Assembly (NCBI GenBank): GCA_000004985.1
Contig: GG738917.1
DNA: 64,000 nucleotides
Source: Naegleria gruberi
Lineage: Eukaryota
Strand: one strand, 5' to 3'
In this document: positions 15,201 to 51,246 of the stretch, one piece after another
Layout: each line of letters begins with the position of its first letter
How positions within the stretch are numbered: the first letter of the stretch is position 1
Notes under the pieces: generated by a model
Told to the model about the DNA's origin: nothing
The model's input: the letters and a program-made list of their open reading frames with translations, nothing else
Databases searched by the model: none
Position numbers and translations under genes: made by a program

Positions 15201-16421
15201 TGTAAAAATTGGAGATATGGGACTTTCCATAAAGTTAGAAGAACTCAATAGAAATAACTCGGCTTGGGGAACCAGACGATGGATGGCACCTGTAAGTAAT
15301 TATCAATTAATATTTCTAAAATCTCAATATAGGAGCAACGGTTGGGTAAAAGATATGACTCTACTGTGGATATTTGGAGTTTAGGATGTATTGCATTAGA
15401 AATGGTTTTACAATATTCGTATTCGATGGTTGTAAAGTCAAGTAATTCAATGGACAATATGGATCATGATATGAGACATGTGGACTATTATCAAGAAATT
15501 AAGAATAATCCTAACTTTTTGAATGATATACTAAGACCACTGGAGTCATACTATGATGACAATATAATAGAATTCATTAAAAAGTGCCTTGTTATTGAAC
15601 CATGGAAACGAGCCAAGGCTCAACAATTATATGGCCTACTCAATCAAGATATTAGATCAGTGGAGAACGCTGAGGTTCACTATGACCAGAGCCTTGAAGA
15701 GTTTCATCCATCTCCCTTCTCTGTGGAAAAGAAAGGATTGGAACAACTCCATGCAGCAACACCCACCGCTGCCAATATCCCTAACAAATTAATTGAAAAT
15801 GCAAGTCTAAGTAACTTGGCGCTCTTACAAAACGAAAGGGATAAAGTGAATGCATTGATAGAGAAAGTAGAAGAATCACAAAGTATTCGTAAAATATCCA
15901 ATCCAGTATTTATAGAGCTTGGAGCTGATAACAAAAAATATACTAAACCAGAACCAAAAGCAACCCACAAACTAACATCCACCATGACAATCGAAAGTAG
16001 AAATGTTCTCACAAGCCATGGATTAAGCACATTTTTCAAAGAAATTGAAGTTGAAGAAAATCATGAAAAAGAAAGCCAATCACTGAAAGACCACAATGAA
16101 TCCTCATCAAGCAATAATGAAATGCTTCCAGAAGAATTTTCCACACAAGTTAAAAGAGGTCATGAAAAGTCACTCCACAAACTCTTGCAAAAATCAATAT
16201 CTGATTGGACAACAAACGATGTAGGAATTTGGCTCATTTCAATTGATTTTAGCAAATTTGTTGAGAATTTTCAATCTCAGAATATTACCGGAAGAGCTTT
16301 ATTGTTAATAAGAGAAGAAGATATGAAAGATGTGGGTGTAGTTAAATTGGGAGACAAACTTTTATTGTGGAACATGATTCAGAATTTAAGACAACTTCAC
16401 GATAGAAAGCAAAAGAAATAA
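12286..16421 (+). CDS. Large Ser/Thr protein kinase: N-terminal low-complexity region, pseudokinase-like domain, active kinase domain, C-terminal SAM domain; join(12286..15291,15333..16421)
   Basis: Active kinase motifs: GSGSQGTV, VAIK, HRDISTKN, DMG, then GTRRWMAP|EQRLGKRYDSTVDIWSLGC restored by a 41-nt intron 15292-15332 (GTAAGT..TATAG). The upstream domain has a degenerate C-lobe (HGNIDVNSIFF, DLGG, KTEVWLFGILM, CHYDPSCRPNMREL). The C-terminal DWTTNDVGIWL..LGDKLLLWNMIQNL is SAM-like. Confidence 0.75.
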
Positions 16422-21053: not shown

Positions 21054-21103
21054 NNNNNNNNNNNNNNNNNNNNNNNNNNNNNNNNNNNNNNNNNNNNNNN
21101 NNN
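21054..21103. other. Assembly gap (50 N)
   Basis: Run of N. Confidence 0.99.
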
Positions 21104-23762: not shown

Positions 23763-26306
23763 ATGTACACCACAATGATACCACAATCACAAACCACATC
23801 GTCATCACCATATAATGGGCATTCTCCTTCCTATTATTCTGATCAAAATAGTGGAAATTCGTCTAGTACATCAATTTCCTCCCCTTCCATGTACTCTTAT
23901 TCATCTTCATCTAATACCTCTCCAACTTCGATAACACACTACCCAATGCAGCAAACAATGCAAAATAATGGAATGGTTTCTAATATTATGGATTTTTATA
24001 TTCATGATGTAAACTTCTCCTTGCATACTAAAGCATCACCTGAATGCGAAATTCAATTGTACAGATTAACCAACCCAATGGATGCTCAAATTACTTTTGT
24101 CAACACTCACCCACAGTCAACACCTCCTCCACATCTCTCAACTGTTGTATATGCTTTACAAATCCAATTAGAAAAGTTCATGTCTCAAACAAATCAATGG
24201 GTACCTTGTACTAACGATACTCCTTCTTCAAACTTGTTTAAAGACTATGAAGCTAATGTTCTGTATAACCAAACTAATAATCAATCAATTACACAATTAA
24301 TTCAAACAGATGGAAAGTCACTTTATATACAGTTACCACTTCAATTAGGACTTTTCAGTAACCAATATACTTCTATGACTTTCCGTTCCAAGTTAAATAC
24401 AAGCAAGGAAAAACAAGGTTTTAAAAGAGGTGAAGTGGCAATCTTTAGAGTTGTTTTCACTCTTCTTAAACAACAACAACAATTGCATACCTATTTCCAA
24501 AATAAGTATGATTCTGTGCCGTTTGGAATAATTAACCATGGTAAAAACAGTACAGCTGTGGGAATGTATAAAAACATTAAACTGAGCTCTATCCCTGGTA
24601 CTGTTGAGTATAACATGCTCATCAAGCAACAACAACAACAAACTTACACACCTCAAATGCACAGTCCAAACAGCAGTATTTATACTACTCCGAACACAAG
24701 TGTTGGAACCAGTGATTATTCAAACAATTCTCCATATGGAGGAAATCAATATAGTGGATATAATGGCCAATCTATGGGTCTGGATGTAATTGATGAAAGT
24801 AGACAAATACAGGAAATGTTGGACATTCTGAATCAAGAAGAAGAAATGGCAAGACAATATTACAACTCCAATTCTTCAAATGATAGTGGATCTGGAGATG
24901 ATATGATGTACATGACTGACGACGAGGACATGTTCAGAGAAATTAACTCTATGGAAGATTACTTCTCTCAAAGTCAAGAAACAAACACAAGTCCTGGACA
25001 ATCCGATCAAAATTATGAAGATATCAAATGGGAAGATGACCCTAATGAAGATTTCCATGGCTTTACAACTCAATCAGATTCAGCCAATGTATTCTTATGT
25101 GATGATGAATGTGATGGAATGGACTCTTACTATGCTGACTATTCTGCTCCATCAACGCAACCCCAAAGCGCAACTTTGTCTTCTGCTTATAGCACCCTTT
25201 TCAAAAGCTCAGTTGTTCCACAACCATTGGCTAGTAGTGCTGGTAGAAGTGTTGAAAGAAGAAGTCTTTCTAAACAAATGGATTCATTTGCACCTCCTCC
25301 TCCAGTTATGAGAAGTAAGGAATCTTCATTGTATTCATTGCCTCCACCATCATCAGAATCAAGAAGTAGATCCTCCCTTGGTAATACTATTCAAGCATCA
25401 ATTACTCCATCTATTAATCAATACGAAACATGGAGCAGTCCTATTGTTTCAGATTCTCGCCAAGAACTCGTTCGTTCTGTTGCTTCTCAACCTTCTCAAC
25501 CTCCAAGAATGACCTTTGGAGCTCACTATATAAGATCTGATGTTGCAGCAGAGCTCAAACAACCTGTAGAAGAAAAGAAAAAGAAGAAGCTTTCACTTGG
25601 AAAACTTTTCAAGAAGAAGGATGAAAAAGCTCCAAAAGAAAAAGAAAATGAAGAAAAGGCCAAAAACCCACTGTCCAATCAATCTCATGCATCATTCTTT
25701 GCAAACTTTAAACCAAGCACTATGGTTACACTTAATACAAATCAGTTACCTGAAAATGTGAGACAAGTCTCTAAAGTTACTCAAGCACAACAAAAACCAA
25801 CAGAAGATTCTACAAGTACAGCCGAAGACGAACTTGCTGAAACACTTTCCAAATTGAATATCAATAACACTGCCCTCACCACTAAATTTGATCCAAAGAA
25901 GATTACTTTCACTCTTGAAAAGAAAGGAAGCAAGGAAGTTTATGACTTGACCAACCCTTCCAAAGAGAAGAAGTCCATTCCATCATTCAATCCAGGAGAT
26001 GTTATTCAATTTTCAGTTAAGAATAATAATGAGAAAGAATTTATCGAAAAGACAAACCTGATTGTGGGTACAACTATTCCAAGAAGGTCGATTGTCACAT
26101 TCTCTGACAAGTCAACTGGCTTTACTCAAATGAAAGAAACTGTTGCCACAAGTCAAATAGTACAAATTCCAAATATAAGAGTAACTAATCCAACATGCAA
26201 GAAGAAGGCAAAGATTGTCACAATTGTATTATTTGTTAAATTTATCGAGTCCGGAAAAGAAAGAATTTTCACAACCAAGAGAAGAATAATGGTTGTTAAT
26301 AAATAA
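23763..26306 (+). CDS. Hypothetical Ser/Thr/Asn/Gln-rich protein (847 aa)
   Basis: Single ATG ORF with coding-like composition and no recognisable catalytic motif. Antisense ORFs within it are low-complexity artefacts. Confidence 0.55.
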   Translation: MYTTMIPQSQTTSSSPYNGHSPSYYSDQNSGNSSSTSISSPSMYSYSSSSNTSPTSITHYPMQQTMQNNGMVSNIMDFYIHDVNFSLHTKASPECEIQLYRLTNPMDAQITFVNTHPQSTPPPHLSTVVYALQIQLEKFMSQTNQWVPCTNDTPSSNLFKDYEANVLYNQTNNQSITQLIQTDGKSLYIQLPLQLGLFSNQYTSMTFRSKLNTSKEKQGFKRGEVAIFRVVFTLLKQQQQLHTYFQNKYDSVPFGIINHGKNSTAVGMYKNIKLSSIPGTVEYNMLIKQQQQQTYTPQMHSPNSSIYTTPNTSVGTSDYSNNSPYGGNQYSGYNGQSMGLDVIDESRQIQEMLDILNQEEEMARQYYNSNSSNDSGSGDDMMYMTDDEDMFREINSMEDYFSQSQETNTSPGQSDQNYEDIKWEDDPNEDFHGFTTQSDSANVFLCDDECDGMDSYYADYSAPSTQPQSATLSSAYSTLFKSSVVPQPLASSAGRSVERRSLSKQMDSFAPPPPVMRSKESSLYSLPPPSSESRSRSSLGNTIQASITPSINQYETWSSPIVSDSRQELVRSVASQPSQPPRMTFGAHYIRSDVAAELKQPVEEKKKKKLSLGKLFKKKDEKAPKEKENEEKAKNPLSNQSHASFFANFKPSTMVTLNTNQLPENVRQVSKVTQAQQKPTEDSTSTAEDELAETLSKLNINNTALTTKFDPKKITFTLEKKGSKEVYDLTNPSKEKKSIPSFNPGDVIQFSVKNNNEKEFIEKTNLIVGTTIPRRSIVTFSDKSTGFTQMKETVATSQIVQIPNIRVTNPTCKKKAKIVTIVLFVKFIESGKERIFTTKRRIMVVNK

Positions 26307-26422
26307 TTTTCACCTTATTGATTTAACCATGCGTTATGTAAAACGCAATCAAACGAAATTCTACTTTGCCATGTTTAAGCTATTATTATTATACTAAGGA
26401 TATATTCTAGGATTTAATGAGA

Positions 26423-26494
26423 TCCCGTGTAGTCCAATGGCTAGGATACCTGGCTTTCACCCAGGAGGTCCGGGTTCAATTCCCGGCATGGGAG
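26423..26494 (+). tRNA. tRNA-Glu (anticodon UUC)
   Basis: Cloverleaf: acceptor TCCCGTG/CATGGGA; anticodon stem CCTGG/CCAGG with loop CTTTCAC; T-arm GGTTCAATTCC; discriminator G. Confidence 0.9.
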
Positions 26495-26578
26495 GATGAT
26501 TTTACTTTGGAACATTATTATCATAAATGTTTATTTCTCTCGTTATTAAAGGTAATTAGAGAAAATTTGTCATTTATT

Positions 26579-27550
26579 TTACAAGGATGGTTTGATGATT
26601 GGCTTTGATGGCTTCTTGCATGTCTTTCTCTTGATACAAATCTTCTTCTTAATTGACTTGCAACACTTCTTCTTTCCACCAACTAATTTGAATTTCTTAC
26701 AAATCTTCTTTCCCTTTGAACGTTTCAAACACTTCTTATAATACTTCTTCTTGATACATCTTGGAGGAATGACAATTGACTTGGCACAATACTTCTTCTT
26801 ATTATATTTAACACATTTAGAAAGAGTCTTCTTGTGCTTACAGAACTTGATGGTCTTATGTTTGGCACAGAAGTATTTCTTCTTAATGAGACAACATTTC
26901 TTGACTGATTTTCTCTCCTTACAGTATTTAACCTTCTTATACTTGGCACATTTCTTTGCCCATGAAACAATCTTACACTTTTTAACATATCTACATTTGG
27001 CAACCTTCTTATTGTAGGAATCAACAGTGTACTTGTCACAAATCTTCTTCTTTTCACACTTCTTGATTGGAACCTTCTTGAATTTCTTACAGACCTTCTT
27101 ATATCCATTCTTGAAACACTTGTTGATAATCTTATATTTGGCACAGAATTTCTTGAAACCCTTCTTAACACAAATCTTCTTAGTTCCATAAGAATCACAA
27201 ACTTTCCAGTACTTCTTCTTGGCACAACCAACAATCTTATATGCATGCAAGACACACTTCTTTGTTGGCTTGCTATACTTGTCACATTTGGAATATTTCT
27301 TATGTTTGAGACATTTACCAGCCCCTACAATTGCATATTGATCACAGACCTTCTTTTGACCAACAAGTTTGTGTTTCAAACACTTCTTAATCCACTTGTG
27401 CTTTAAGCATTTTCTCTTACAATGCTTTGGCTTGTGATACTTGTCAACAACAACAACTGGAGGTTTAGTTTGATAGCTGTCACTTGCTTGAACTGAGAGG
27501 ACTGCAAGTAAAAGTAGAAGTGCAATTGAAAAGATTAGATTTGCTTTCAT
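26579..27550 (-). CDS. Secreted hyper-basic Lys/Cys-rich repeat protein (~324 aa precursor from MKANLIFSIALLLLLAVLSVQA)
   Basis: ATG at 27550 followed by a canonical hydrophobic signal peptide. The mature part has about 30 Cys at a regular 8-12 residue spacing, embedded in Lys runs (recurring KKC / KYxKKC units). Roughly one residue in three is Lys. The ORF-track version (347 aa) starts at an upstream in-frame codon. The antisense ORF 26725-27285 is an artefact of the repeat. Confidence 0.7.
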   Translation of the reverse strand: MKANLIFSIALLLLLAVLSVQASDSYQTKPPVVVVDKYHKPKHCKRKCLKHKWIKKCLKHKLVGQKKVCDQYAIVGAGKCLKHKKYSKCDKYSKPTKKCVLHAYKIVGCAKKKYWKVCDSYGTKKICVKKGFKKFCAKYKIINKCFKNGYKKVCKKFKKVPIKKCEKKKICDKYTVDSYNKKVAKCRYVKKCKIVSWAKKCAKYKKVKYCKERKSVKKCCLIKKKYFCAKHKTIKFCKHKKTLSKCVKYNKKKYCAKSIVIPPRCIKKKYYKKCLKRSKGKKICKKFKLVGGKKKCCKSIKKKICIKRKTCKKPSKPIIKPSL

Positions 27551-27867
27551 TTTTTGTTGGATAGGATAGTTCAACCATGGTGCTAATTTAAACCATTTCG
27601 AATAATTTTTCATTTGGAACAAGCTTTAAAAAGTTGGTTGTAAGGTTCCAAATTTGGAAAGAAAATTGATTTCCCTAACCAAACCTTCAATGATTCAACT
27701 ATCAACTCATCATTCCAAAAGTATTCTTATTATCAACAGATATGTTGAATGATTTACAACCTGAACAATTTCAAGCACCTGTGAAAGACATTGCTAATGT
27801 ACAAGATGGTTTTATTACAATATGACATATAAATATGTTAATGGTGTGTCTACAATAATCAAATTGG

Positions 27868-29426
27868 TTAAACAATACTGTTCTTTAATTGAATGTCTCT
27901 AGAGAAGGAATACTTTTTGAATTCAGAAGTTTCTTTCAATCGTTCAAAAGTATCATTAAGATTTAACATTAACTCAGTTGTTACAATATTTCTAATGAGG
28001 GACAATTTGACTGGTTGTTGATTTTCATAGATAGATACAAGTTCCTTCTTTGCTGGCGATGGAAGATTGACTTCATATTTTGAAAGAGATTGAAAGTAAG
28101 TTTCAAATAAATGTTTGAAAGTTTCCACTGTCACTAATACATCATCCTTCTCTTTCAGATTTTCTAATTCTTCATATAAGAGTGCATTTTCTAGTGAAAA
28201 TTCCTTAGCGCAATACATTTTAAACAATTCCTTAAAAGTGTCATCTTTCATTAATTCTTCCAATCTAGATTCTTGTTTAATATTATCTGAAACTGCGTTT
28301 CTCCTCTTTAAAATAAATCTTCTCCATTCCAATACAATTGCTGTTCCTCCCCCAAGACCGTATGTACATAAGCATGCGAGAGATGACAACACAGAGGTCA
28401 CAACTTCCTCATAATCATACGTGAATTGAGAACAAATTGCAATCACAATGGTAATTAACATGATACACAAGAAATAAATCAAATCAATTCTCAACCCAAA
28501 TGGATCTTCAAAGGAAAGAAAATTCAACAGACCCTTATCCTTAATCTTTTTCCAGTTTAAGGCAATATCAATTAGAATTATCAAGGAACCAATATTGTTC
28601 CTAATAAAATTTGAACAGCATACATTATATTCAATTCGGCTTGTAAGGAGTATTGTTTTTGATCAACTATATAAGGAATGCAAATAATCATCCAAATACA
28701 GGCATAGGTAAATCCACTCACAAATGAACCAATGATACCAAACCAACTGGATACCAGAAACTTGTGAATCTTGATAGTAGTTTCGCTCTTTGCCTTTGAA
28801 AGAAATAGATAAAGATATCTGAGGTAGGAAAATCTTATTAGGGAAAATCCATAAATTCCAACAATGGCAGATAAAAAGCAAATACTCAATACATAATTGA
28901 CAGATCGACATGAAAGGGTATATGATGTAAAGCTAATATTAAATACAATTATCAAAATAGGTAATGCATAAGGAGCTGTCAATCTTCTTTTCACAGATTT
29001 GGTTTTACAAACTGTCAACAAGGCCAAATAGAATAGAAAACCAATAATGACAGTAGCCCAAATAACAGACTCATACACAATCTCTGCGTTTCTATCAACT
29101 TCATTAGAACAAACATTGTACTCGTCACTGAATTTTTCATAACAATACATTTCATTAATGGTCATGAATGAAGTTGACTGATTGTAATAATACTGAGATT
29201 GTAATTCATAATCTAAAACGTATTTTTCACTAGAAAATGGATAAAAGAGTGCATTGTGTTTTCTAACTAGTGGAATGTCATTGAATTGATTCAGATAATA
29301 GGTAAGAAACTCCTTTTGATATCCTGAAATGTTACCGAAACCATTTTGATAAAACATGTAACCAATATTTCTCTTGATTTCAAAATATTTCATTGTTGTA
29401 TTGGTACCAATGAAATACTCATTCAT
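27868..29426 (-). CDS. Seven-transmembrane protein with C-terminal RGS domain (7TM-RGS). Two ORF-track frames (28581-29426 and 27868-28584) need joining.
   Basis: Hydrophobic helices: ATVIIGFLFYLALLTVC, ALPILIIVFNISFTSYTL, VLSICFLSAIVGIYGFSLI, VSSWFGIIGSFVSGFTYACIWMIICI, IDLIYFLCIMLITIVIAICSQF, VLSSLACLCTYGLGGGTAIVL. The RGS domain is FKELFKMYCAKEFSLENALLYEELENLK... A -1 frame change occurs near 28600-28640 (unresolved: tiny intron, frameshift or error). Confidence 0.65.
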
Positions 29427-30339: not shown

Positions 30340-30409
30340 GCGTCGATGGTTTAGTGGTAGAATACGGCGTTGCCATCGCCGTGACCCGGGTCAATTCCCG
30401 GTCGACGCA
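30340..30409 (+). tRNA. tRNA-Gly (anticodon GCC)
   Basis: Acceptor GCGTCGA/TCGACGC; anticodon stem CGGCG/CGCCG with loop TTGCCAT; T-arm CCGGGTCAATTCCCGG; discriminator A. Confidence 0.85.
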
Positions 30410-30972
30410 TTCAAAGATAACAATTTTTACTTTCTACATACAATATTATAATATTGTATATAATATTGGACCAAAGCCTTAATATCATTTGTATCATTCA
30501 TAAGCATTAGTTATTGCAATTCTTGATAAATATTCAATCCCTTTTTCTCCAATATTAATAAATTAGATCAAAGATTGGAAATTTCCTTTTATCCTTTCTT
30601 CTGACACATTTCTATTCAACGTTAAACATTCAGTTGTCGCAAATTTTGACAAATAGATCGACTTCCTACATCTTGAACCTATGCTGAAATCAAGTTTAGT
30701 TTCGTTAAAGTTGAAGTTTTTATTTGAAATTAAATTAGCTCCTTCACTTCCCAATTTTACATGTTTCATTTCATTTTGGAACTATATCTTAATAAATCAA
30801 AATTGAGATCAATCTTAAAAGGTTAATCTTTTCAGTTTCGAACACTTTGAAAGGTGTTTAACAGTTTCATCTCCTACCACTCCATTAATTCCCTCTATCA
30901 ATGCTAAACCTGAAAGTAATTCATTTTTTCTTTTCTTCATGGAACTTTGATTGTTGTTGAAAACGTTGTAAG

Positions 30973-31053
30973 GCGGTCTTGACCGAGTGGTTAAGGTGAT
31001 TGACTAGAAATCAATTGGGGAGACCCGCACAGGTTCGAGTCCTGTAGATCGCG
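30973..31053 (+). tRNA. tRNA-Ser (anticodon AGA), class II with long variable arm
   Basis: Acceptor GCGGTCT/AGATCGC (one G-U); D-arm CCGAGTGGTTAAGG; anticodon stem ATTGA/TCAAT with loop CTAGAAA; variable arm GGGGAGACCCGC; T-arm CAGGTTCGAGTCCTG; discriminator G. Confidence 0.85.
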
Positions 31054-31127
31054 ATTGTTTTTATTAAGGTATCACATGTTAAAGTGTGATATTATTTTGA
31101 TTAATAAACATATTGTTATTGGGAAGA

Positions 31128-31200
31128 TCCCCCTTAGCTCAGTCGGTAGAGCGTCAGACTGTTAATCTGCAGGTCGGTGGTTCGAGCCCACCAGGGGGAG
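31128..31200 (+). tRNA. tRNA-Asn (anticodon GUU)
   Basis: Acceptor TCCCCCT/AGGGGGA; D-arm GCTCAGTCGGTAGAGC; anticodon loop CTGTTAA; T-arm GGTGGTTCGAGCCCACC; discriminator G. Confidence 0.85.
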
Positions 31201-32559
31201 ATTAAGTTTTGCTTTGACCTTTTGGTAAATTGAGAGGGTGTTTTACACTATGTTATTGTTAACTAATAATTCTGCCTAATAGAGGTTGTTTGCTAACTGT
31301 TTATTTCAATTGCAATATCTCTTCTTGCTGGCTTGAATTTGTTCAACATATTTAGGACTCCAGAAAAGGCAAACATTATTGAAATGAACGACTTCGATGA
31401 AAAGTGGAGTCTAAATTGTTTCCTAAAAACATGATTGGCTTTGAGTTGTTTAGGTTGACTAGTAATAAAATCATCATTTGGAACTTGTTGCGCATTTGCT
31501 TAATACCCAAGTGTAGGAGACTTGACATAAACCTCTAGAATCCTCAACCCATCTATACTTTCCTTTCTGTATTTAATTTTGTTTTTTCATCATTGTTGTT
31601 TTAATATGTTTACCAAATTCTTCTTGTTCCATAGCTTTCAGATTTTTTCGATTTATGATTCCCAGAGTGTTTTAACAAATCCTCTCTTTTCTGATTGAAT
31701 AATGAATAGTTACCATGAATTTATTCAACCGAAACCTCCAGTCTCGATATCAGCATTAAAGTTGAAAATTTTAATGGTAGCAATGCTCCAAGCAAAAGCT
31801 TTCCGATCAATAAATCCATTTAGTAACAAGTAAAACCACTGGAAGATTCCTCCCAATTCATCTACCTACGCCTTCTCAAATTCTGAACCTTGTTCTTTAG
31901 AATTACTCCTCCAAAATATGAACCAACTACCAAGATCCATCATAAACTGATTCAAATATAATGAACATATCACATCATGTAGACTTTAAACGACATGCCA
32001 TAGATACATCACCACAACAAAAACATGTTCTCCTCCAATAATTCCTTATCGTTCCAACAAGTGTGTTTAAATTCAAGAGCATTGAATTTAAAAAGTAATA
32101 ACTATGGTCCACTCAGAATGTCTCTTGATGAGTATCCAATTTTCTTACATAGAGAAGGCAGAAACAATAACAATTAATTCCTCTATCACATCCGTAATAA
32201 ACTTCATCATACAAACATGAAAGAGGATGTTCCAAGATAATCATACAGGGTACTACAGAAAGAATGATGAAGATTTGTTTACCAAGTCACAGAAAGGAGG
32301 AAACAAGAAGAAGGAATACAAATGGAGGTTAAGAATACTTCCCTAAACTGTTCATAACAGTAATTATTATTATACTATTCAACATGTTGTTTTAAATTAG
32401 TTAGCGATCAACCTATCGATGCTGGTAATGGCTAAAGAATACGATGAAGCATTTTTAATTTTTACTGTTCAAAAATTAGATTGTAAACAACGAGCACATA
32501 ATGGTAAACCAAGTTTTAAAAATTTTGTTGAAAAAAAAATCCATTAATCCATATTCACA

Positions 32560-33102
32560 ATGCCAAAGGAAACCGTTGACAGAAAACTCAAGAAGGACAA
32601 TCCAATGAGAAAGGTCCAAATCCAAAAGCTTTGCTTGAATATTTCCCCTGGTGAAGGTGGTGATAGATTGCAAAAGGCTGCTAGAGTCTTGCAAGATTTG
32701 ACTGGTCAAGCTCCAGTTTTCCACAAGGCCCGTTTGACTATCCGTTCTTTCGGTATTAGAAGAAACGAAAAGATTGCCTGTTCCGTCACTGTTAGAGGTG
32801 AAAAGGCCTACGAATTGTTGGAAAGAGCTTTGAGAGTTAAGGATTTCGAATTGAGACAACGTAACTTCTCTGATGCTGGTAACTTCGGTTTTGGTATCCA
32901 AGAACACATCGATCTTGGCTTGAAGTACGATCCTAACATTGGTATCTTCGGTATGGACATCTTCGTCGTTTTGGGTCGTCCAGGTTTGAGAGTCTCCAAG
33001 AAGAAGAGAGCTCCAGGTAAAATTGGTGTTCAACACTTGTTGAGCGAAAAGGATGCCAAGCAATGGTTCGTTGATAACTTCAAGGGTACCATCTTGAACT
33101 AA
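32560..33102 (+). CDS. RPL11: 60S ribosomal protein L11 (uL5)
   Basis: 180-aa ORF: [69 protein letters not shown]. Codon usage is markedly GC3/optimal-codon biased relative to neighbours, as for highly expressed ribosomal protein genes. The antisense 229-aa ORF is an artefact. Confidence 0.95.
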
Positions 33103-33262
33103 ATTAAAAAATAAATCAAAACATAAAATTTCATAAATTGCATTTAAAAAACAATAATACAACAATATTCATCAACGAAGATCACCAACAAATACTCAAC
33201 TAATTTTTGTTAACTCTGATTAAAGAAGGTTGTCATCAAAATGTCTTCTTCAAGATTAAAAA

Positions 33263-34999: not shown

Positions 35000-37900
35000 T
35001 TAAAGCTTGAAGAATTTAGAATATTTGCCCATATTTAAGAGACCATTGTTTGCTTCAACAGTTGGATGTACAAGGAATGCAATTGAATTTTCAGCTTTGA
35101 GCACAACATTAACTTCTGGACAACACTTCTTAACTGTTTCAATAGTTTCTTGGAATACCTCTTCAACATTCTTAAAGTTAACAAATGAATAGCTTACTCT
35201 CTTGTCATTAGTTAATTGAATGCATTGTCTATTACTCATATTCCTCTTTCCAACCTTGGAGATCTTTACAAGTTGAGAGTATGGAAGTATCATCTTTAAA
35301 CATGAACCACTATTAACAGTTGTAGTGAAACATAGACAATCTGTGAAAATGTAAAATTCACCAATCAACTTGGTATCATAATCAGTACAACTGTACTTGT
35401 TGAATAATCTTGTTTCTGGTTTGAGATTAAATGTCTTTCTAACAACATCAGAGACAGGATATCCCTTCTTTGAGATAACCTTTTGTTGAGATGCAATATC
35501 AGAATCCTTATCATCCTCCTTTGTAGTGTTAATAAATAAGAGCTTGTTAACAAGTGATGAATCTTTTGCTTTGAATTCACTTGCATTCTTCAAGATGAAT
35601 GTTTGAATAACTTCAAATGCCTTCTCTCTATCTTTGAAACATGAAAATTGGAATTCCTTCTCAGATTTGGAAACAGTAATTGAATTATCGAGTGCTCCTG
35701 CACCAAATGTAGATCTGAATACACTCTTAATTTTACCTATAGAAATCTTGATATAATCAATTTGAGTGTTATATTGAGGTTCTGATGTGAAAAAGTTAGC
35801 AGTTCCTCTAATTGCAGTCATTGGATTCAAGTAATGTAGCATTGAATATTCCTTGTTTGTTGCTTCAATTGTAACATCAAGTTTAAATAACTTGATAAGG
35901 GATGATATTGGAATCCAACTGATACAAATATCAGGTGAACTCAAAATACAAATAAATCCGTCATTTCCTTTGTACATGCATCTGAAGAAATCAGTGATAA
36001 CTAATTTAATTTCTTCGTCAGCTCCAGTAATCTTTGTTGGGAACTTTAAAAAGTTCATGAATTCTTCGCCAAGTTGACCTGCAAGCCCTTTTCTACATGA
36101 TCTTACAAAAGCATCCAATCTAAAAACAATATCTTTCAAATAATCAGAGCTTTCCATTTCAAAGAATTCGGATTCAATCATCTTGGCTTCATTTTCCACC
36201 ATTTCTGTAATATTCTTCTTTTCAAGTTCAAGGATGGCTTTTTGATGAAGGAGAGATTCAATTTCCTTTCTCAAATCCTTTGCTTTAGATCTTGTTTGTT
36301 TTCTTTCATTTGTAATTACTCTCATAGATTTAACATGTTTGTATTTCTTTTTCAATCCATCAATTTCCTTTCTCAAATTATCCAAAGATTGTTTGGATTG
36401 TTGATAATTATCTTTAGCAGTTTTAAGTGCTTTTTGGAACATGTCAAAATCACTATTAATTAAAGCTTGATTACCTTCAAACAATGACATTTCTGAAGTA
36501 ACAAACTTGTTAGCATCAGGGTCATTCATTCTCTTATTTCTTGTTTCAATGGCTCTTCTGTGCAGAATAGCAAATATATAATTACTTGTTACAATAATCT
36601 TACTCTTAACTTCTTCTGCATCAGCAATTTGATCTTTCAAATCATGAATTTCTTCTTCTTTATCTTTTCTAGCTAAATCCTTATTCATTGTTTCTATGAG
36701 ATTGGCAACATCTTCAATTTGGATTGATTTTTCATTGTATTCATCAATTAGCCTCTTTGTAGATGTCAAACTCAATTGGAATAATTCAGAAATAAAATCA
36801 AAATGTTCCTTAATGTACTTTACATCAAGACCAGATCCATTTGCATTGAAATAATCCATGAAAGATTCAAATGTTGTTTTGAATTTTTCAATTTGAGATC
36901 TTGTTAGAGTTGGTCTATCAGCAGGAGGAATAGCACATTCCTTCAACTCATCAATTAACATGTTAAAGATATTTCTAAGAACAACCTCAAATACCCTATC
37001 ATTGAGGACACTATAAAGAGTAGCCAATTGATCATCCAAATAATCAAAAAGTGGTGTCATGAGCGAGTTGAGATCAATCTCAGAAACATTTGGTTGTAAA
37101 TTATTAACTGGTAGTCTATTGGATGATGTAGTTCTTGTAGGAGTTGAAGGATTACTTCTTGTAGGAGTTCCTGGAGAAGAAGGAACAGCACCAGGTTGAC
37201 TAATCTTTGTAATTGTATCAATTAAACTTTCCTTCATGGTCTTGAAGATTAATTGTGAAAGGTGGTTATTCATCTTTTCTTGGATCATTGACTTTAAAGA
37301 TGTTAACAATACTTTCATAGTATCGTGCATCATTCTCATACCTTCCAACAGGTCATCCTTCTTCTTTTGTGAATAAGATGAAGTTACGGATGTACTTAAA
37401 TCAATAGATTGAGATTCATCATCTTCATCCAAGGATCCTAAATCATAATCTTCGATTTGATTGGCAATTTCAGATTGTTGCTTCAGCAATTGTTTGTGAA
37501 TATCTTCAGAGAGTGATCTCACTTGATTAATAGTTTCTAAAATATTATTCATACATAAACCCATTTTAGAAACAATTTGTTTGTGAACATCCTTTCTAGT
37601 TTCTTCATACAAATCTTCTTCCTGTTGTTGTTGTTGAACAGTAGTTTTTCTCTTCAATAACATATCCTTATATTTGGCACTTGTTTTTCTATTGACATAT
37701 TCTTCTTCAATCTTTTTCATCTTTGTGGTATTATCAATAAATATTTCCAAATTCATAGTCGCATAATTTTCAATAACTGTTGCAATAACGTGTGTATAGG
37801 TTACATAGATGAGAGGAAGAGTTTCAAGTGAAGAGTTACCTGTTCCAAACTTGGAATTTGTAGACTCAGCCAAAGTTCTAAAAGAATCCAAAATTGATTC

Positions 37901-40900
37901 AGAGGCATATTGGGCAGGTGGTTGAATTTCTGATTTTAAGAATTGTAAACTTGTTTCTAAAATAATTAAACTTTGTCTTAATGATGTGAATGTATCAATA
38001 ACTGATGTAGTATAACTAACATCTTGAGTAATTGGTTTCCATTCACCATAGTCAACTGCCTTCTTACACCATGAAGTTGCACTCTTTTCAAACGTTTCAA
38101 TCCACTTGTAAACATATGGAATGAAGATATCTTTAAGTGCATATGGTTGAACATTAGCATGGTCAGCTAATAATTGATAAATCTTTTCAATCTTTGATGG
38201 TAAATCGAATAAACCTAAAGGAAGTTCTCCTCTATCAGTGTAATATCTAAATTTGCTTGATTTTAACTTGTGTAGTTCAATTTCAATACATGAATAGACT
38301 TGATTAGACACAATTTTCATTACACCAACACTTGAAGGGAAAGTAGGTTCGAAATGAGTTTCATATCGTGGTAAATGTTCATTTAAAACTTCAATGAGAC
38401 ATAATAATTGAACTGGATGAAGACCTCCACTCTCATCAGGTTGTAAATTTGGATCTTTCTCTGCTAATTTGTTAATAATTTTACCTCTATAATAATCAAA
38501 CAAATTAACCATACTATTTTCGATACCTTCCTTTGTTGCAATTGAAAGTGATTTGTAACCATGATTAATACCATCAGGATCTGCCATACATGAGAAGGCA
38601 TGAATTAAAGTTGAAACCTTAACAGCAAACATGATAATGGTATCCATAGTTTCATTTGCTGATTTCCAGTGATTGTCAATAATGAAACTCAACTCTCTAT
38701 TAATATTCTTTGCTGCTTGGGCAAAGATTCTCTTCTCAGAGGATGTCAAATAATATCTATCAATAACTGGATCATCATCAAGTAATTTGTCCTTCTTTTT
38801 CAATTTTCCTGCAGCAGAAAGATTTCTTGTAATAATGGTTCTTACCAAGTGAAGTAAACACTTGTAAATATTACCAATTTCAGAGTAGGAATGTTTGAAT
38901 TGTCTTGAGAGTTTTTCCAACAAGACCAAGAATGCAAAGACACCATCTCCATATCCATAAAAGTTAGAAACAGCTTGAATAACTTCGAGAGATTCATCTT
39001 TAAGTGTCAACATCTTAGTTTTAACTTTGGTTGATTTATCTTCTTCCTCATCTTCATCATCGCTATCAGCTGCTGAGCTTCTCTTTTCTTCAACAGTAAA
39101 AAGTGAATATTGAAGAATACAATCAATAAATTGTTGGATAATAACATGTCTATATCTAACATCTTCATCACCATTATCGTGCCTCTTCTTTACATCATCA
39201 AGTGATAAACTGAATTGAGAAAGTGCTTCATCAATATTCTTTGTTTCAGTTTCAATGAAATTGTCATATTCACGATCTGATTCAAAGTGCTTTTTAGCAT
39301 AGAATGGGTGTTCATCTTCAGAATCAACAAATCTGTGATATCTTGTTGTACATTCTTCTAAAAGTAGATTTTTAACTCCTAGTTTTTTCAATTCTCTCAA
39401 TTTGTAGTCTTTCAGATCATCTCCAACAAAACAAGCTTCCGCAACAATATTATACAAAATATTGAACTTTTCTGATGGCATACCAATATTAACATCAAAG
39501 TACATTACAAAAACAGCTCTAGCAGCAAGATTAAATGCTTCCTCACGTTGGGATTTCAAAATAGTAACAGAAGCTCTTGAAAATCCTGTTAAAACTGCTC
39601 TAATATTAGAAAATGGATCTCTCATAATGTTATTTTGTCTATCCATTTCATAGAGCTTTTTGGTAAATTCAACTTGTTCTTTTCTGTTTGAAATTTTGTG
39701 AATTTTAACAGATTTTCTATTCTTTCCAGTTGGGATCACAGGGCTGGTTGCTTCATCTTGAGTATTTTTGAGTAAATCTTCAAAATCTTCACCATCCAAT
39801 AATTCATCAAGACTCAAACTTGGAACATTGACATCTTGATCTGCTTCCTTCTTATTCTTTGTTGAAGGAGTATTAATGGTTCCAATAACATTATCCATAA
39901 TTTCATGACCTTCCAATTCTTCGAAAGCTGTAGCACTATCAAATGCCATTTCAGACTTGTCTTGAACTTTACCAAGTTTTTTCAAAGTCTTTGAATTCTT
40001 CATGATTGGAATTTCATAATTATCAATAATATTGAGAACAGTTCTAAGAATTTGAACAGATAAACCCTGCCTTTCTCTATCATGTTCTAAACCCATAACA
40101 GATAAGAAGAGTGACTCGTAGGTATTTCTGAATTTTTCTGCATGTAATTTGGCAGCTGTACAGAAACCGTCAGTATAGTTAGGGAACATTTTGATCATCG
40201 TTGCAGATTGAGTCATTGCTTCATCATGTCTTTCAGGGTCTTTATCGAGCATGAGTGATTCAATGTGGTGACGAAGATATCTCTTATTGTTTGGTTCCAA
40301 TAAGACAGCTTCAGAGAATAATTCTTGTGCCTTTTGAAGATCTTCATAACTGTCATCCTCTTCTTCAATTTCAATCTTTTCTTTCTTTCCACCATAACTA
40401 AAGACACTGAGTGCACTAAATATGGATGTGTAGAGACTTTCATCTTCTTCCTTTGAATTTTTAATTTCTTGTTTGATTTCATCTTTTTTACGTTTCAAGA
40501 ATGCTGTATAATTTTCAAAGAAGATTTGACCTTCTTCATCTTTTTCAGCTGCAGTAATACTCTTTGATTCTCTATCATAAATTTCATCTTTCAATAAGAG
40601 TAAGTTATCCATAGCTTCTTCATCGTCAAATGTTAAACTTTCTTCAATAATTTCCTTAGCCTTTTCATAATCACACAATTCCAAATAGATTGTTGCAAGG
40701 GTAGCATAAACTTCTTCACTAGTATCATGTAGGAGAGCTTCTTGAGCGTCTTTCAATGCAATTTCTGGTTGAGAAAGTTTAAGTAACACTCTGGCTCTTC
40801 TACATAAATATTGGGCACAATCATCGTGTAGGTGAATAGCACTAGAGTAGAGTTCAAGTGCTTGTTCATAATTTCCATTGGCATAACAATCTTCAGCATC

Positions 40901-43900: not shown

Positions 43901-45741
43901 TTGATTCTTCTCTTCTTGTGTTTTATCAACTTTCACATCTTCATACAAATGTTTTTCAGTAGATTTCAATTCATTTTCTGCTTTCACGACAACATCATCT
44001 TCTTCACTAATATTCAAATCTCCAACACCAACTTTAAGTAAATCAATAACTTGTTTAACATCAACAGTAGCAATACCAGCTTGAATACCTTGTTTAAAAT
44101 TACTACCTCCATTTACATAAACACAATCATCACTTGAATCGTAAATCATGATGTGTCCTTTTCTTGCAGTTGGCCAAGAGTCATTAAGTTTAATCATTCT
44201 TGGAAGTGGAACAAATGATTCATTTACAAGATCCAAAATATGACAATCTCTTCTATGTGTGTAATCTCTTACACCACCAAATATTAAAATACATCCTCGT
44301 CCAATATTTACAGCTGCAGATGAATATCTTTCATCAGGAGGTTGGTCTAAAGTTGTTGCAACAGAACCATAACTTGTTGTGCTACTGTAGGAGTAAAAAG
44401 GTGTGAATCGTGCAATTTCTGACCAAGCTGTTTTACCAGAAATTCCCAATTGTTTACCAAAACCTTTCACTTGAGAAACTGTAGCATTTGTAACACCTTT
44501 TGTAACATCAACTACTTTTGTAATAATATTCTTATCCTTATCATCATAAATACTTTTTGATGGATCTGTCAAACAATGCCATTTGCTTGTTGTAAAACTA
44601 AATGACCAAACATCATTAAAACAAGTTCCACCAATATTTTTAGTATTCAATGCTTCAGTTATTTTACCTATATACATTGCATGAATATTTGAAAATCCAA
44701 ACATGATAACCATATGATGTTGATTCTTTTCGATTGTTGGCATTTTAATTTCACTCTTATCAATTTCTGATTTCATCATTTCAATATATAATTTCTTAGC
44801 TTGGGCTTCAAAAACAAGACTCATATCCATAATAACACCAGAATGTCCATATCTAGCTTCTGGTGCCTTAGTTCTATCAAAAGCAACTTGTGTCCAAATT
44901 TTAGTTTCCAAATCCAAACACCAAAAATCTGCCAAAGGCTCAGATCCACTATATCCACCAAATACCCACATACAGTCATTACTTTGAGTTCAAGTATTAT
45001 AATTATAATCAAAATTAGAAATCAATTATTAAGAGAGAAAAGAAATTATAATAAAGATTCAATAGATAACATACTAAACCATAGCTGTATGCATAGATCT
45101 TCCCATTGGACGACTTTGTTTTTCATCAATGTCACACCGAGTCCATTTCCATTCAGTTGTATCCAAAACCCAAACATCATTCAGATAATTACTTCCATTA
45201 TATCCACCAAATAAAATTACTTGTTCTTCCATAACATATTCCTCTGCTTTTGTTATTGGATTAATTTTCAATACTTCAGTTTCCCACACAGCAGTTGTTT
45301 GTCCTTCTCTTGATGAAGGAAATTGTGGTCCACTTGTTGTCAAGTTATTATTGTTTTTTCCTAATCCAAAAAGTCCAAGCATTGAACTCTTCTTTCCCTC
45401 GTATGAGTTTCCTTTAGAAACTATTGAATAGGTCCATTCTATCATTAAAATATTTTCAAATAATATAGTATTTAATTTGTTTCATCATAATTCAATTTCC
45501 GATATTGTCAATTTTCAAATCTACTTGCTTGACTGAACATACCAATATTATCGTGTTGAGGATTTTCATGTTTTTTAAATTGAACAACATCATTATATTT
45601 AGAGTACTTGGATGATCCTCCAAATATATAAAAACTTGATGGTGTTCTTTTTAAACTAAAACATGAATGATTTACTCTTTCTTCAAAAAAGACATGATCA
45701 TCATATTCAGGCTTTACTTCTCCTGATAATTTCCACTCCAT
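35000..45741 (-). CDS. Giant (~3500 aa) Kelch-repeat / TPR-repeat protein with C-terminal GRAM-like domain; complement(join(35000..44981,45075..45438,45543..45741))
   Basis: Three ORF-track pieces join in frame through a 104-nt intron (GTATGTTC..AATGATAG, 45439-45542) and a 93-nt intron (GTATGTTA..ACTCAAAG, 44982-45074). The N-terminus has Kelch blades (FYIFGGSS..YNDVVQF; LFGGYNGSNYLNDVWVLD; WVFGGYSGSEPLADFWCLD; ILIFGGVRD). The middle has >1500 aa of TPR-like helical repeats and coiled coil. The C-terminus (..FNLKPETRLFNKYSCTDYDTKLIGEFYIFTDCLCF..LVKISK..) fits a GRAM/PH-like fold. Confidence 0.8.
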
Positions 45742-49270: not shown

Positions 49271-49274
49271 ATTG

Positions 49275-50708: not shown

Positions 50709-50744
50709 AATAACAGCAGAAGGTAAAGCAAAATAGGAAAGTAA

Positions 50745-51170: not shown

Positions 51171-51246
51171 AATTTGTTGTGTGATTGTTTTAAAATGTTG
51201 ATTATTAACAATAATGGAAGGTAATCATTTGTCCGGACAAAAAAAC

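What the first reader, a model, noticed from the sequence alone, without database searches (positions are those of the whole stretch)
26579..27550. Hyper-cationic secreted Lys/Cys-repeat protein with no recognisable family
The gene encodes a classical signal peptide followed by ~300 residues. About a third are Lys. About 30 Cys recur with a near-regular 8-12 residue spacing inside KKC/KYxKKC units. Predicted pI is far above 10. Composition this extreme, combined with secretion, suggests either a structural protein (cyst, spore or cell-wall cross-linker) or a polycation-binding or antimicrobial-like effector. It sits next to a tRNA-Glu gene and a 7TM-RGS receptor gene. The regular Cys ladder argues for a disulfide-stabilised repeat fold rather than random low complexity.
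Basis: seen in the sequence. Interest (0 to 1): 0.7.

Follow-up and report, generated by a model that had tools for sequence, protein, structure and literature searches.

The report
Naegleria secreted lysine-rich cysteine-ladder protein
This is a real, conserved Naegleria gene for a secreted protein that is one-third lysine and has a cysteine about every ninth residue; it belongs to a small uncharacterised family found only in Naegleria and its relatives, is probably an extracellular structural (cyst-wall or matrix) protein, and has no experimental data.

Summary
Window 26579-27550, minus strand, is a single-exon ORF of 323 aa with a signal-peptide-like N-terminus. It has 107 Lys (33%) and 32 Cys, most often 9 residues apart (lag-9 z = 7.95; 0 of 5000 shuffles). 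Net charge is about +104.

The ORF is a real gene. An environmental ortholog gives dN/dS 0.135, and 30 of 31 aligned Cys are kept. The window comes from Naegleria (gruberi type).

The protein has no Pfam or PDB match. It belongs to a family seen only in Naegleria, Willaertia and environmental relatives, with five N. gruberi paralogs. An exhaustive profile search of 1.84 billion proteins found 18 cluster representatives.

What the family conserves is two homologous Cys-ladder blocks and D-x-Y(-K-P) motifs. The extreme lysine content is specific to one subfamily. AlphaFold2 predicts two confident all-beta blocks with very long strands, and no solved structure resembles them.

Function is inferred, not shown. 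My best guess (about 0.4) is a disulfide-stabilised polycationic wall or matrix protein. The main rival (about 0.25) is an antibacterial polycation. The GenBank model of this gene (NAEGRDRAFT_76199) is chimeric. I found no expression data.

The parts
26579..27550 (-). Complete single-exon CDS (323 codons plus TAA) of the Lys/Cys-ladder protein. It is the intact counterpart (one residue different over the shared half) of the chimeric GenBank model NAEGRDRAFT_76199.
   Evidence: ORF and translation. Colinear with paralogs and orthologs from Met1. dN/dS 0.135 against L001. In L001 a stop lies 6 codons upstream of the ATG, so the upstream in-frame ATG at 27613 is unlikely to be the start.
27485..27550 (-). 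Signal peptide, residues 1-22 (MKANLIFSIALLLLLAVLSVQA).
   Evidence: Hydrophobic core and V-x-A at -3/-1. All full-length family members start with an equivalent M-K/R plus hydrophobic stretch. SignalP was not run.
27422..27484 (-). Pro/Tyr leader, residues 23-43 (SDSYQTKPPVVVVDKYHKPKH), with two D-x-Y motifs.
   Evidence: A D-S/T-Y motif directly after the signal peptide is seen in this subfamily and in some other members; elsewhere it lies further into the leader.
27038..27421 (-). N-terminal Cys-ladder block, residues 44-171 (15 Cys).
   Evidence: Ladder Cys columns conserved across the aligned paralogs, with occasional losses. AF2 pLDDT is 84-96 for about residues 54-123 and falls after that. 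Homologous to the C block (hhalign probability 94.9%, E = 4e-8).
26996..27037 (-). Short linker, residues 172-185 (DKYTVDSYNKKVAK), with a D-S-Y motif.
   Evidence: This is the variable region of the family. It is expanded in paralogs with extra Cys or D-P-Y-A-P-P / D-S-Y-V-P-K-P segments. AF2 confidence is low here.
26618..26995 (-). C-terminal Cys-ladder block, residues 186-311 (17 Cys, including two CC pairs), with the family motifs P-R-C, S-K-G-K-K-I-C and V-G-G-K-K.
   Evidence: Alignments. AF2 pLDDT is 85-96 for about residues 234-303.
26582..26617 (-). Basic Pro-containing tail, residues 312-323 (KKPSKPIIKPSL). It has no hydrophobic GPI or TM signal.
   Evidence: Sequence. Paralogs carry tandem (K)-V/I-D-S/T-Y-K-P(-P-K) repeats at this position.

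Best explanation
A genuine Naegleria gene encodes a protein of about 35 kDa that is secreted through the ER. After signal-peptide removal, the protein is built from about thirty 9-residue units ([A/L/V]-K-x-K-x-[Y/I/V]-K-x-C). These units form two homologous beta-rich blocks.

The Cys residues are inferred to form intramolecular disulfide 'rungs' that staple very long beta-hairpin ribbons. The ribbons are covered with lysine side chains.

The most likely role is as an extracellular structural protein of the cyst wall or pericellular matrix. In this reading the polycationic rods bind anionic or polysaccharide wall polymers electrostatically. They are then locked in place by disulfides and by oxidative or enzymatic cross-links through the D-x-Y / K-P 'handles' at the N-terminus, the linker and (in paralogs) the C-terminus.

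Shown: the gene is real; it is under purifying selection; it has a secretory-type N-terminus; there is a lineage-restricted family with a conserved ladder; the predicted structure is beta-rich.

Inferred: the disulfide pattern, the extracellular wall or matrix location, the cross-linking, and the timing of expression.
For: Gene reality:
- dN/dS is 0.135 (dS 1.04), with 78% aa identity and 30 of 31 Cys kept, against the ortholog on L001.
- Similarity is confined to the CDS; the flanks cannot be aligned.

Family:
- Five N. gruberi paralogs, plus members in N. fowleri, N. lovaniensis and Willaertia.
- Only 18 cluster representatives at E <= 1e-3 in 1.84 billion proteins.
- Apparent orthologous pairs are 58% identical (N. 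gruberi vs N. fowleri) and 63% identical (N. gruberi vs N. lovaniensis), nearly gap-free. This points to old, stable subfamilies rather than fast-evolving effectors.

What is conserved:
- The Cys ladder and the turn motifs are conserved, not the charge. Lys ranges from 13% to 33% and net charge from +30 to +104.
- Architecture is SP, Pro/Tyr leader, ladder, variable linker, ladder, tail.
- Some paralogs end in tandem KVDTYKPPK x4 (P0025/L002) or IDSYKP x3-4 (N. fowleri P0006). Others have DPYAPPK or DSYVPKPDTYNP in the linker.
- From general knowledge, this layout recalls the Tyr/Lys/Pro cross-linking repeats of extensins, PRPs and mussel mfp-1.

Structure:
- AF2 with a 13-sequence MSA gives pLDDT 69.9, with two all-beta blocks at 84-96.
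- Strands reach 35 residues and are interrupted only at conserved G/P motifs.
- The only weak fold hits are proteins with very long beta-hairpins.
- No CxxC or CxC motifs, no N-glycosylation sites, no TM or GPI tail.

Codon usage resembles the ribosomal protein gene in the same window:
- AAG 80/107, TTC 7/8 and GC3 0.44 here.
- AAG 17/19, TTC 9/10 and GC3 0.47 for uL5.
- GC3 0.21-0.29 for the other window genes compared.
- This hints at high expression at some stage.
Against: I found no expression, localisation or biochemical data. Neither the locus tags nor the UniProt IDs appear in the searchable literature or in two supplements.

The window protein has only three isolated D-x-Y motifs, not the tandem arrays of its paralogs.

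Extreme cationic charge with alternating Lys positions would also suit a membrane-active antimicrobial.

The disulfide pattern is inferred only from the DSSP string and from position sums; I could not inspect model coordinates. The AF2 MSA is shallow (13 sequences), and the middle of the protein is modelled poorly.

The composition of the Naegleria cyst wall, including whether it has an anionic partner polymer, was not retrieved.
Confidence: 0.4

Rival explanations
1. Antibacterial or bacteriolytic polycation. The secreted or phagosome-delivered protein, or hairpin fragments released from it, binds anionic bacterial envelopes and kills prey. It would act like a giant concatenated disulfide-stapled beta-hairpin antimicrobial peptide or a protein version of polylysine.
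For: Net charge is about +104, and the protein has a signal peptide. Lys is strongly preferred at positions -2, +2 and +4 relative to each Cys, with more hydrophobic or aromatic residues in between; this is a beta-strand-like alternation. The structure is disulfide-rich and beta-rich. From general knowledge, Naegleria is a bacterivore.
Against: The family is defined by the ladder, not by charge, and several members are only moderately basic. Purifying selection is strong, and apparent orthologs are stable across Naegleria species; many host-defence peptides evolve fast. The odd positions are not consistently hydrophobic: Lys is also the commonest residue at -1 and +1. At 35 kDa it is far larger than known peptides of this kind. 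There is no match to any AMP family in Pfam.
Confidence: 0.25
2. Surface coat or substrate adhesive. The Lys/Tyr-rich rod is deposited on the cell surface or substratum and mediates adhesion to negatively charged surfaces, in the way mussel-foot proteins do.
For: Lys 33% and Tyr 6%. The family carries Y-K-P motifs. The protein is secretory.
Against: There is no membrane anchor. Nothing indicates DOPA chemistry in Naegleria. The window protein lacks tandem Y-K-P repeats.
Confidence: 0.1
3. Luminal polyanion-condensing protein. It would package polyphosphate, nucleic acid or acidic glycans inside secretory or lysosomal compartments.
For: Extreme positive charge and entry into the secretory pathway.
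Against: Nothing specific supports it. The conserved, rigid ladder and the Tyr/Pro handles would be unnecessary for simple charge neutralisation.
Confidence: 0.07
4. Metal-binding (metallothionein-like) or redox-buffer protein.
For: 10% Cys.
Against: There are no CxC or CxxC motifs and only two CC pairs. The single Cys every 9 residues, together with a secretory signal, fits an oxidising compartment where Cys forms disulfides.
Confidence: 0.03
5. Not a functional gene: a chance ORF in AAG-rich low-complexity DNA, or the antisense of another gene.
For: Low-complexity composition. The exact protein is absent from the 15-billion-protein collection. The L001 ortholog carries one in-frame TGA.
Against: dN/dS is 0.135 in this frame, with Cys conserved. 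Paralogs and orthologs are present in four named species. Other-frame and opposite-strand ORFs are short (at most 88 aa on the + strand) or are Arg/Ser and Phe/Leu frame artefacts. There is no DNA tandem repeat.
Confidence: 0.02

Closest known systems
Uncharacterised Naegleria/Willaertia 'predicted proteins': NAEGRDRAFT_67458, _64980, _66117, _57793; N. fowleri FDP41_004030; N. lovaniensis C9374_009239; W. magna ABK040_005866
   Same: True homologs. They share the signal peptide, the two 9-residue Cys-ladder blocks, the G-K-C / P-R-C / S-x-G-x-K-x-C / G-G-K motifs and the D-x-Y motifs. E-values run from 1e-130 to 1e-9.
   Different: The window protein, with _67458 and environmental relatives, forms the most lysine-rich subfamily (25-33% K). 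It has the shortest linker and no tandem Y-K-P tail. The _57793 type adds a 380-aa N-terminal region of different Cys-rich 'C-P' modules.
Apicomplexan oocyst wall proteins (Cryptosporidium COWPs, Toxoplasma OWPs). From general knowledge.
   Same: Secreted wall proteins of a resistant stage with Cys recurring every 10-12 residues. They are thought to be held together by disulfides. Tyr-rich partner proteins are cross-linked oxidatively.
   Different: No detectable sequence relationship. No non-Naegleria-type hit turned up in the exhaustive profile search, and there is no Pfam hit. Period, composition (33% Lys) and predicted long-ribbon architecture all differ.
Amoeba and diplomonad cyst-wall proteins: Acanthamoeba Luke/Leo/Jonah lectins (PMC6541295, title and abstract only), Entamoeba Jacob, and Giardia CWP2 with its basic tail. 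Details from general knowledge.
   Same: Secreted, Cys-rich proteins that are abundant during encystment and bind wall polysaccharide. CWP2 carries a strongly basic extension.
   Different: No sequence or domain similarity (Pfam negative). Those proteins use recognisable lectin, LRR or CBM folds.
Disulfide-stapled cationic beta-hairpin antimicrobial peptides (tachyplesin, protegrin, arenicin, bactenecin) and defensins. From general knowledge.
   Same: Cationic, beta-structured, with Cys pairs bridging antiparallel strands.
   Different: Those are 12-45 residue peptides with 1-4 disulfides. This is a 301-residue chain with 32 Cys, no Pfam match, and slow evolution.
Extensins, proline-rich proteins and mussel foot protein-1. 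From general knowledge.
   Same: Lys/Tyr/Pro-containing short repeats used as oxidative cross-linking sites in extracellular structural proteins. Paralog tails carry KVDTYKPPK x4 and IDSYKP x3-4.
   Different: In this family those repeats are only terminal or linker appendages to a Cys-ladder core. The window protein has isolated D-x-Y motifs only.
Disulfide-braced beta-solenoid antifreeze proteins (Tenebrio TmAFP, 12-residue TCTxSxxCxxAx repeats). From general knowledge.
   Same: A short sequence period with regularly spaced Cys forming a disulfide ladder along a regular beta structure.

Membership tests
Naegleria/Willaertia Cys-ladder secreted protein family (unnamed) | Significant full-length sequence similarity to the other members | tested here: met
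   P0003 E = 4.7e-57 (44% id, 88% coverage), P0004/P0005 E = 2e-14. Profile search: 1e-130 to 4.8e-6.
Naegleria/Willaertia Cys-ladder secreted protein family (unnamed) | Two blocks of Cys spaced mostly 9 apart, with conserved G/P turn motifs | tested here: met
   Modal Cys gap is 9 in every full-length member. Ladder columns are conserved in the 12-sequence alignment. The N and C blocks are related (hhalign 94.9%).
Naegleria/Willaertia Cys-ladder secreted protein family (unnamed) | N-terminal signal peptide followed by a D-x-Y / Pro-rich leader | tested here: met
   Based on hydropathy and the -3/-1 rule; no dedicated predictor was run.
Apicomplexan oocyst wall proteins (COWP/OWP) | Sequence homology to the COWP Cys-rich type I/II repeats | tested here: not met
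   No Pfam family even at E <= 10. Every hit whose source I looked up in the exhaustive profile search was Naegleria, Willaertia or an unnamed environmental sequence.
Cyst/oocyst wall structural protein (functional class) | Expression during encystment and physical presence in the wall | not testable with these tools
   No transcript or proteome data retrievable.
Cationic disulfide-stabilised antimicrobial peptides / defensins | Match to a known AMP/defensin Cys motif or family model; small mature peptide | tested here: not met
   Pfam negative. The mature chain is 301 aa with a C-x8-C ladder.
Cationic disulfide-stabilised antimicrobial peptides / defensins | Antimicrobial activity | not testable with these tools
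   Needs recombinant protein and MIC or permeabilisation assays.
Metallothionein-like metal-binding proteins | Clustered CxC / CxxC / CC motifs; cytosolic | tested here: not met
   0 CxC, 0 CxxC, 2 CC; a signal peptide is present.
Extensin / PRP / mfp-1-type Tyr-Lys-Pro repeat proteins | Tandem arrays of short Y/K/P repeats making up the bulk of the protein | tested here: not met
   The window protein has only isolated D-x-Y motifs: DSY at residues 24-26 and 177-179, DKY at 36-38, and further ones adjacent to ladder Cys. Tandem arrays exist only in the tails of paralogs P0025 and P0006.
Beta-solenoid antifreeze proteins (TmAFP type) | 12-residue TCT-containing repeat; beta-helix fold | tested here: not met
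Giardia VSP / high-cysteine membrane proteins | Frequent CxxC motifs and a C-terminal TM anchor | tested here: not met
   No CxxC and no hydrophobic segment beyond the signal peptide.

The most novel reading that the evidence does not exclude
The family represents a previously undescribed protein architecture. It would be a rigid, polycationic 'disulfide-rung beta-ribbon', in which a 9-residue register places Cys opposite Cys along hairpins of roughly 40 residues per arm. The inferred rungs are, for example, C89-C99, C80-C109, C69-C118, C57-C127 and C48-C136. These rods would be the main proteinaceous building blocks of the Naegleria cyst wall, including that of the pathogen N. fowleri. Standard tryptic proteomics detects the protein poorly.
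Probability: 0.22. Interest if true: 0.7.

Novelty: new variant of a known kind. Interest (0 to 1): 0.5.

Why it matters
The protein composition of the Naegleria cyst wall is essentially unknown, and the cyst is the stage that resists disinfection, including in N. fowleri. A conserved, probably abundant, secreted family with no relatives outside the lineage is a concrete candidate for a wall or matrix component. If the rival explanation is right, it is instead a candidate for a new type of antibacterial effector.

The predicted long disulfide-laddered beta-ribbon has no solved analogue, so it could be a new fold and a useful rigid polycationic scaffold.

Two practical points follow.
- The public gene model of this locus is chimeric, and the intact ORF is missing from the protein databases.
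- Complete trypsin digestion leaves only 7 peptides of 7 or more residues. This covers 68 of 301 residues, so routine proteomics would detect the protein poorly.

Tried and rejected
- **Pfam.** I scanned the protein, its mature part, four paralogs and the N-terminal region of P0027. No family was found even at E <= 10.
- **PDB by sequence.** The family profile and P0027 gave nothing meaningful. The best was E = 0.25, to a phosphatase.
- **First AF2 run.** A 4-sequence MSA gave pLDDT 44.7, which is unusable.
- **Fold searches with the better model.**
  - Foldseek against PDB gave E > 4 and TM < 0.1, to the lysenin pore.
  - These hits reflect only long beta-hairpins.
  - The afdb50 library was unavailable.
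- **Domain-fusion route to function.** A homolog search with the N-terminal 382 aa of the long paralog P0027 returned nothing.
- **Genomic context of GenBank paralogs.** The look-up of encoding contigs had no record for P0002 or P0003.
- **Literature.**
  - Locus tags, XP accessions and UniProt IDs gave 0 papers.
  - Searches on Naegleria cyst-wall, proteome, encystment and amino-acid composition found nothing on this family or on wall proteins.
  - Supplements of PMC11772885 and PMC9035749 had no hits, and PMC10802493 has no supplements held.
  - PMC2824669 was irrelevant.
- **Recent DNA slippage as the cause of the repeats.** Rejected. TRF finds no tandem repeat, and the longest exact internal DNA repeat is 17 nt.
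- **Antisense or alternative-frame gene.** Rejected.
- **Parity of Cys counts as evidence for all-intramolecular disulfides.** 6 of 8 mature full-length members have an even count, by hand count. I judged this not significant.
- **Compensating indels between the two hairpin arms.** One arm is invariant, so the test is uninformative.
Full report

Yes. The ORF lies on the minus strand at 26579-27550, with ATG at 27550 and TAA at 26579-26581. It encodes 323 residues.
- Composition: 107 Lys (33.1%), 32 Cys (9.9%), 20 Tyr, and only 9 acidic residues. Net charge is about +104.
- The mature chain is about 35.5 kDa.
- The pI is 10.1-11.1, depending on pKa set and Cys oxidation state. It is limited by the Lys pKa, so 'far above 10' overstates it.

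In the same window, 30 ATG-ORFs of at least 150 aa have a median of 7.5% Lys and 1.2% Cys. The next most Lys-rich has 13.3%.

The Cys spacing is not random.
- 14 of 31 gaps equal 9, and 24 of 31 lie in 8-12.
- Lag-9 autocorrelation is 16, against 3.2 expected (z = 7.95, 0 of 5000 shuffles). Harmonics appear at 18, 27 and 36.
- BLOSUM self-similarity also peaks at lags 9, 18 and 27.

Cutting the sequence after each Cys shows the unit [A/L/V]-K-x-K-x-[Y/I/V]-K-x-C. Lys is strongly preferred at -2, +2 and +4 relative to Cys (23, 21 and 18 of 32). The in-between positions are more mixed, with more hydrophobic and aromatic residues. This is a beta-strand-like alternation.

The N-terminus MKANLIFSIALLLLLAVLSVQA|SD has a classical hydrophobic core and V-x-A at -3/-1. 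I did not run a dedicated signal-peptide predictor. There is no other hydrophobic segment, no N-x-S/T site, and no CxC or CxxC motif.

- tRNA-Glu(TTC) lies at 26423-26494.
- An RGS-domain ORF lies at 27868-28584 (Pfam E = 9.4e-9).
- It sits directly downstream of a multi-TM ORF at 28581-29426.

Two details were wrong. The '26725-27285 antisense ORF' is on the same strand in another frame; it is an Arg/Ser artefact of AAG runs. The organism is not an amoebozoan.

**2. Is it a gene?**

Yes, on comparative grounds.

A Logan contig (L001, run SRR32051688) carries an ortholog that is 80.7% identical at the DNA level. That similarity is confined to the coding region; the flanks do not align. Across 311 aligned codons:
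- amino-acid identity is 78%;
- dS is 1.04, dN is 0.14, and dN/dS is 0.135;
- 30 of 31 aligned Cys are retained, and 95 of 104 Lys positions stay Lys or Arg.

In L001 a stop lies six codons upstream of the ATG. This argues that 27550 is the start, not the in-frame ATG at 27613.

The periodicity is not recent slippage. Tandem Repeats Finder reports nothing in 26000-28000, and the longest exact internal DNA repeat is 17 nt.

Plus-strand ORFs here are at most 88 aa and are Phe/Leu-rich mirror artefacts.

Codon usage resembles that of the ribosomal protein uL5 gene in the same window.
- This ORF: AAG 80/107, TTC 7/8, GC3 0.44.
- uL5: AAG 17/19, TTC 9/10, GC3 0.47.
- Other window genes compared: GC3 0.21-0.29, AAG about 50%.

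This is a hint of high expression, and it is an inference only. I could not obtain direct transcript evidence.

**3. What is it related to?**

Curated libraries give nothing. Pfam is negative even at E <= 10, and PDB sequence searches find nothing meaningful.

Large-scale protein searches show a small, lineage-restricted family. Cluster look-ups name the following members.
- N. gruberi NAEGRDRAFT_76199. This is the same gene. Its C-terminal ~145 residues differ from the window at one residue, but the GenBank model fuses them to an unrelated SAM/PB1 N-terminus.
- N. gruberi _67458 (301 aa, 44-50% identity), _64980 (362 aa), _66117 (475 aa) and _57793 (707 aa).
- N. fowleri FDP41_004030.
- N. 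lovaniensis C9374_009239.
- Willaertia magna ABK040_005866.
- Soil and water metagenome fragments.

A profile HMM search that read all 1.84 billion representatives found only 18 at E <= 1e-3. The exact window protein is not in the 15-billion-sequence collection.

Apparent orthologous pairs are 58% identical (N. gruberi vs N. fowleri) and 63% identical (N. gruberi vs N. lovaniensis), almost without gaps. The paralog subfamilies are therefore old and stable.

**4. Anatomy of the family**

The layout, from N- to C-terminus, is:
- signal peptide;
- a Pro/Tyr leader, often with (V)D-S/T-Y;
- ladder block 1 (window residues about 44-171);
- a variable linker. In the window protein this is just DKYTVDSYNKKVAK. 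Paralogs expand it with extra Cys or with DPYAPPK and DSYVPKPDTYNP segments;
- ladder block 2 (residues about 186-311), with the conserved motifs P-R-C, S-x-G-x-K-x-C and G-G-K;
- a tail.

In the _64980 subfamily the tail is a tandem array: KVDTYKPPK x4 in P0025/L002 and IDSYKP x3-4 in N. fowleri.

The two ladder blocks are homologous to each other (hhalign probability 94.9%, E = 4e-8 over 104 columns).

The modal Cys gap is 9 in every full-length member. Lys content, in contrast, ranges from about 13% (the _57793 type, rich in Thr/Gln/Glu) to 33% here, and net charge from +30 to +104.

So the conserved determinant is the ladder. The hyper-cationic surface is a subfamily specialisation.

**5. 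Structure**

AF2 with 4 sequences failed (pLDDT 44.7). With 13 family sequences the mature protein reached pLDDT 69.9. Two all-beta blocks scored 84-96. These are model residues about 31-100 and 211-280, which correspond to precursor residues about 54-123 and 234-303.

The DSSP strands are very long, up to 35 residues. They break only at the conserved G/P motifs: V-G-Q, V-G-A-G, S-K-P, I-P-P, S-K-G and V-G-G.

My inference is as follows. Each block is a long two-stranded ribbon. Because both arms share the 9-residue register, Cys faces Cys as disulfide rungs. Around the S-K-P turn (93-95), the position sums fit C89-C99, C80-C109, C69-C118, C57-C127 and C48-C136. I could not inspect coordinates, so this pairing is a prediction.

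**6. Mechanism**

*Shown:* a secretory-type precursor; a conserved periodic Cys scaffold; a predicted beta-rich structure; strong purifying selection; restriction to one lineage.

*Inferred:* in the oxidising ER the Cys form intramolecular disulfides, producing stiff Lys-coated rods.

I favour an extracellular structural role (cyst wall or pericellular matrix), with probability about 0.4. The rods would bind wall polymers electrostatically and be fixed through the D-x-Y / K-P handles and disulfides. Four reasons support this.
- The family conserves the scaffold rather than the charge.
- The 'rod plus terminal or linker Tyr/Lys/Pro repeats' layout is typical of cross-linked matrix proteins such as extensins, PRPs, mfp-1 and oocyst-wall proteins (general knowledge).
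- Evolution is slow and orthology appears stable.
- Codon usage suggests abundance.

The main rival (about 0.25) is an antibacterial polycation for a bacterivorous amoeba. The charge, the K/hydrophobic alternation and the disulfide-stapled beta structure all fit it. Size, conservation pattern and the weakly basic paralogs argue against it.

Minor rivals are an adhesive coat, a luminal polyanion condenser, metal binding and a non-gene. They are scored in the rival list.

**7. Comparison with known systems and novelty**

The protein is a member of an unnamed Naegleria/Willaertia family; all three defining features I tested were met.

It fails every sequence or motif test for COWPs, AMP/defensin families, metallothioneins, Giardia VSP/HCMPs, TmAFP-type solenoids and extensin-type repeat proteins (see the membership table). 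It may nevertheless work like a wall protein of the COWP or extensin kind.

Paralog sequences already sit in databases as 'predicted protein', but I found no paper that mentions them.

I rate it a new variant of a known kind (secreted, periodic-Cys, cross-linkable extracellular proteins of protists). The predicted fold is possibly new.

Interest is 0.5. The gene is real, extreme in composition and conserved in a genus that includes a lethal pathogen, but its function remains inferential.

**8. Limits**

- No expression or localisation data.
- A shallow MSA for AF2.
- No access to model coordinates.
- No signal-peptide predictor.
- dN/dS rests on one pair, with dS near 1.
- Heterolobosean genomes other than those present in the protein collections could not be searched.

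Noticed in passing
window 26579-27550 versus GenBank XP_002668872 (NAEGRDRAFT_76199, P0002): The public gene model is chimeric. A SAM/PB1 N-terminus (residues 1 to about 296) is joined to the C-terminal ~145 residues of this ORF, which differ from the window at one residue. The SAM/PB1 part is not adjacent in this window. The intact 323-aa protein is absent from the 15-billion-protein collection.
   Followed up: partly
L001 629-631: The ortholog on Logan contig SRR32051688_570309 has a single in-frame TGA (KIN*C, where the window has KIVGC). Its reading frame otherwise remains conserved to the normal stop. The cause could be a sequencing error, a polymorphism or a very recent pseudogene.
   Followed up: no
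window 1635-1684, 21054-21103, 48510-48559, 58730-59826, 62101-62383: Runs of N (assembly gaps). The 1097-nt gap explains the apparent 11.7% GC at 58-60 kb and the spurious 458-aa 'ORF' at 58461-59837.
   Followed up: yes
window 49000-64000: ORFs in the last 15 kb have much lower GC3 (0.09-0.18) than those in the rest of the window (0.21-0.31), and regional GC drops to 0.22-0.29. The cause was not examined.
   Followed up: no
window 30340-31200 and 61887-61958: A cluster of tRNA genes (Gly-GCC, Ser-AGA, Asn-GTT within 860 bp), plus tRNA-Met(CAT) on the minus strand. tRNA-Glu(TTC) lies 85 bp beyond the stop of the Lys/Cys gene, on the opposite strand.
   Followed up: no
window 27868-29426 (-): The multi-TM ORF (28581-29426) and the RGS-domain ORF (27868-28584) overlap by 4 nt in different frames. 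They are probably one 7TM-RGS gene interrupted by a short intron or a frameshift.
   Followed up: partly
window 32560-33102 (+): A ribosomal protein uL5 (L11)-like gene with strong codon bias (AAG 17/19, GC3 0.47). The overlapping 229-aa minus-strand ORF at 32476-33165 looks like an antisense artefact.
   Followed up: partly
window 35000-44971 (-): A very long uninterrupted ORF of 3323 aa. It was not characterised.
   Followed up: no
L002 about 1250-1364 (P0025), and the P0006 C-terminus: Paralog tails carry perfect tandem 9-residue repeats: KVDTYKPPK x4, and IDSYKP x3-4 in N. fowleri. These look like Tyr/Lys/Pro cross-linking motifs.
   Followed up: partly
P0027 / P0026 / P0017 residues about 100-385 (N. 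gruberi NAEGRDRAFT_57793 and environmental relatives): The long paralogs carry about seven copies of a different ~40-residue, four-Cys module (C-P-x6-9-C-x2-G-x15-20-C-x3-4-C) upstream of the ladder domain. It has no Pfam, PDB or homolog hits.
   Followed up: partly
window 16179-16394 (+): A SAM-domain-like stretch, 40% identical to the N-terminus of P0002, lies inside the 339-aa ORF at 15402-16421.
   Followed up: no
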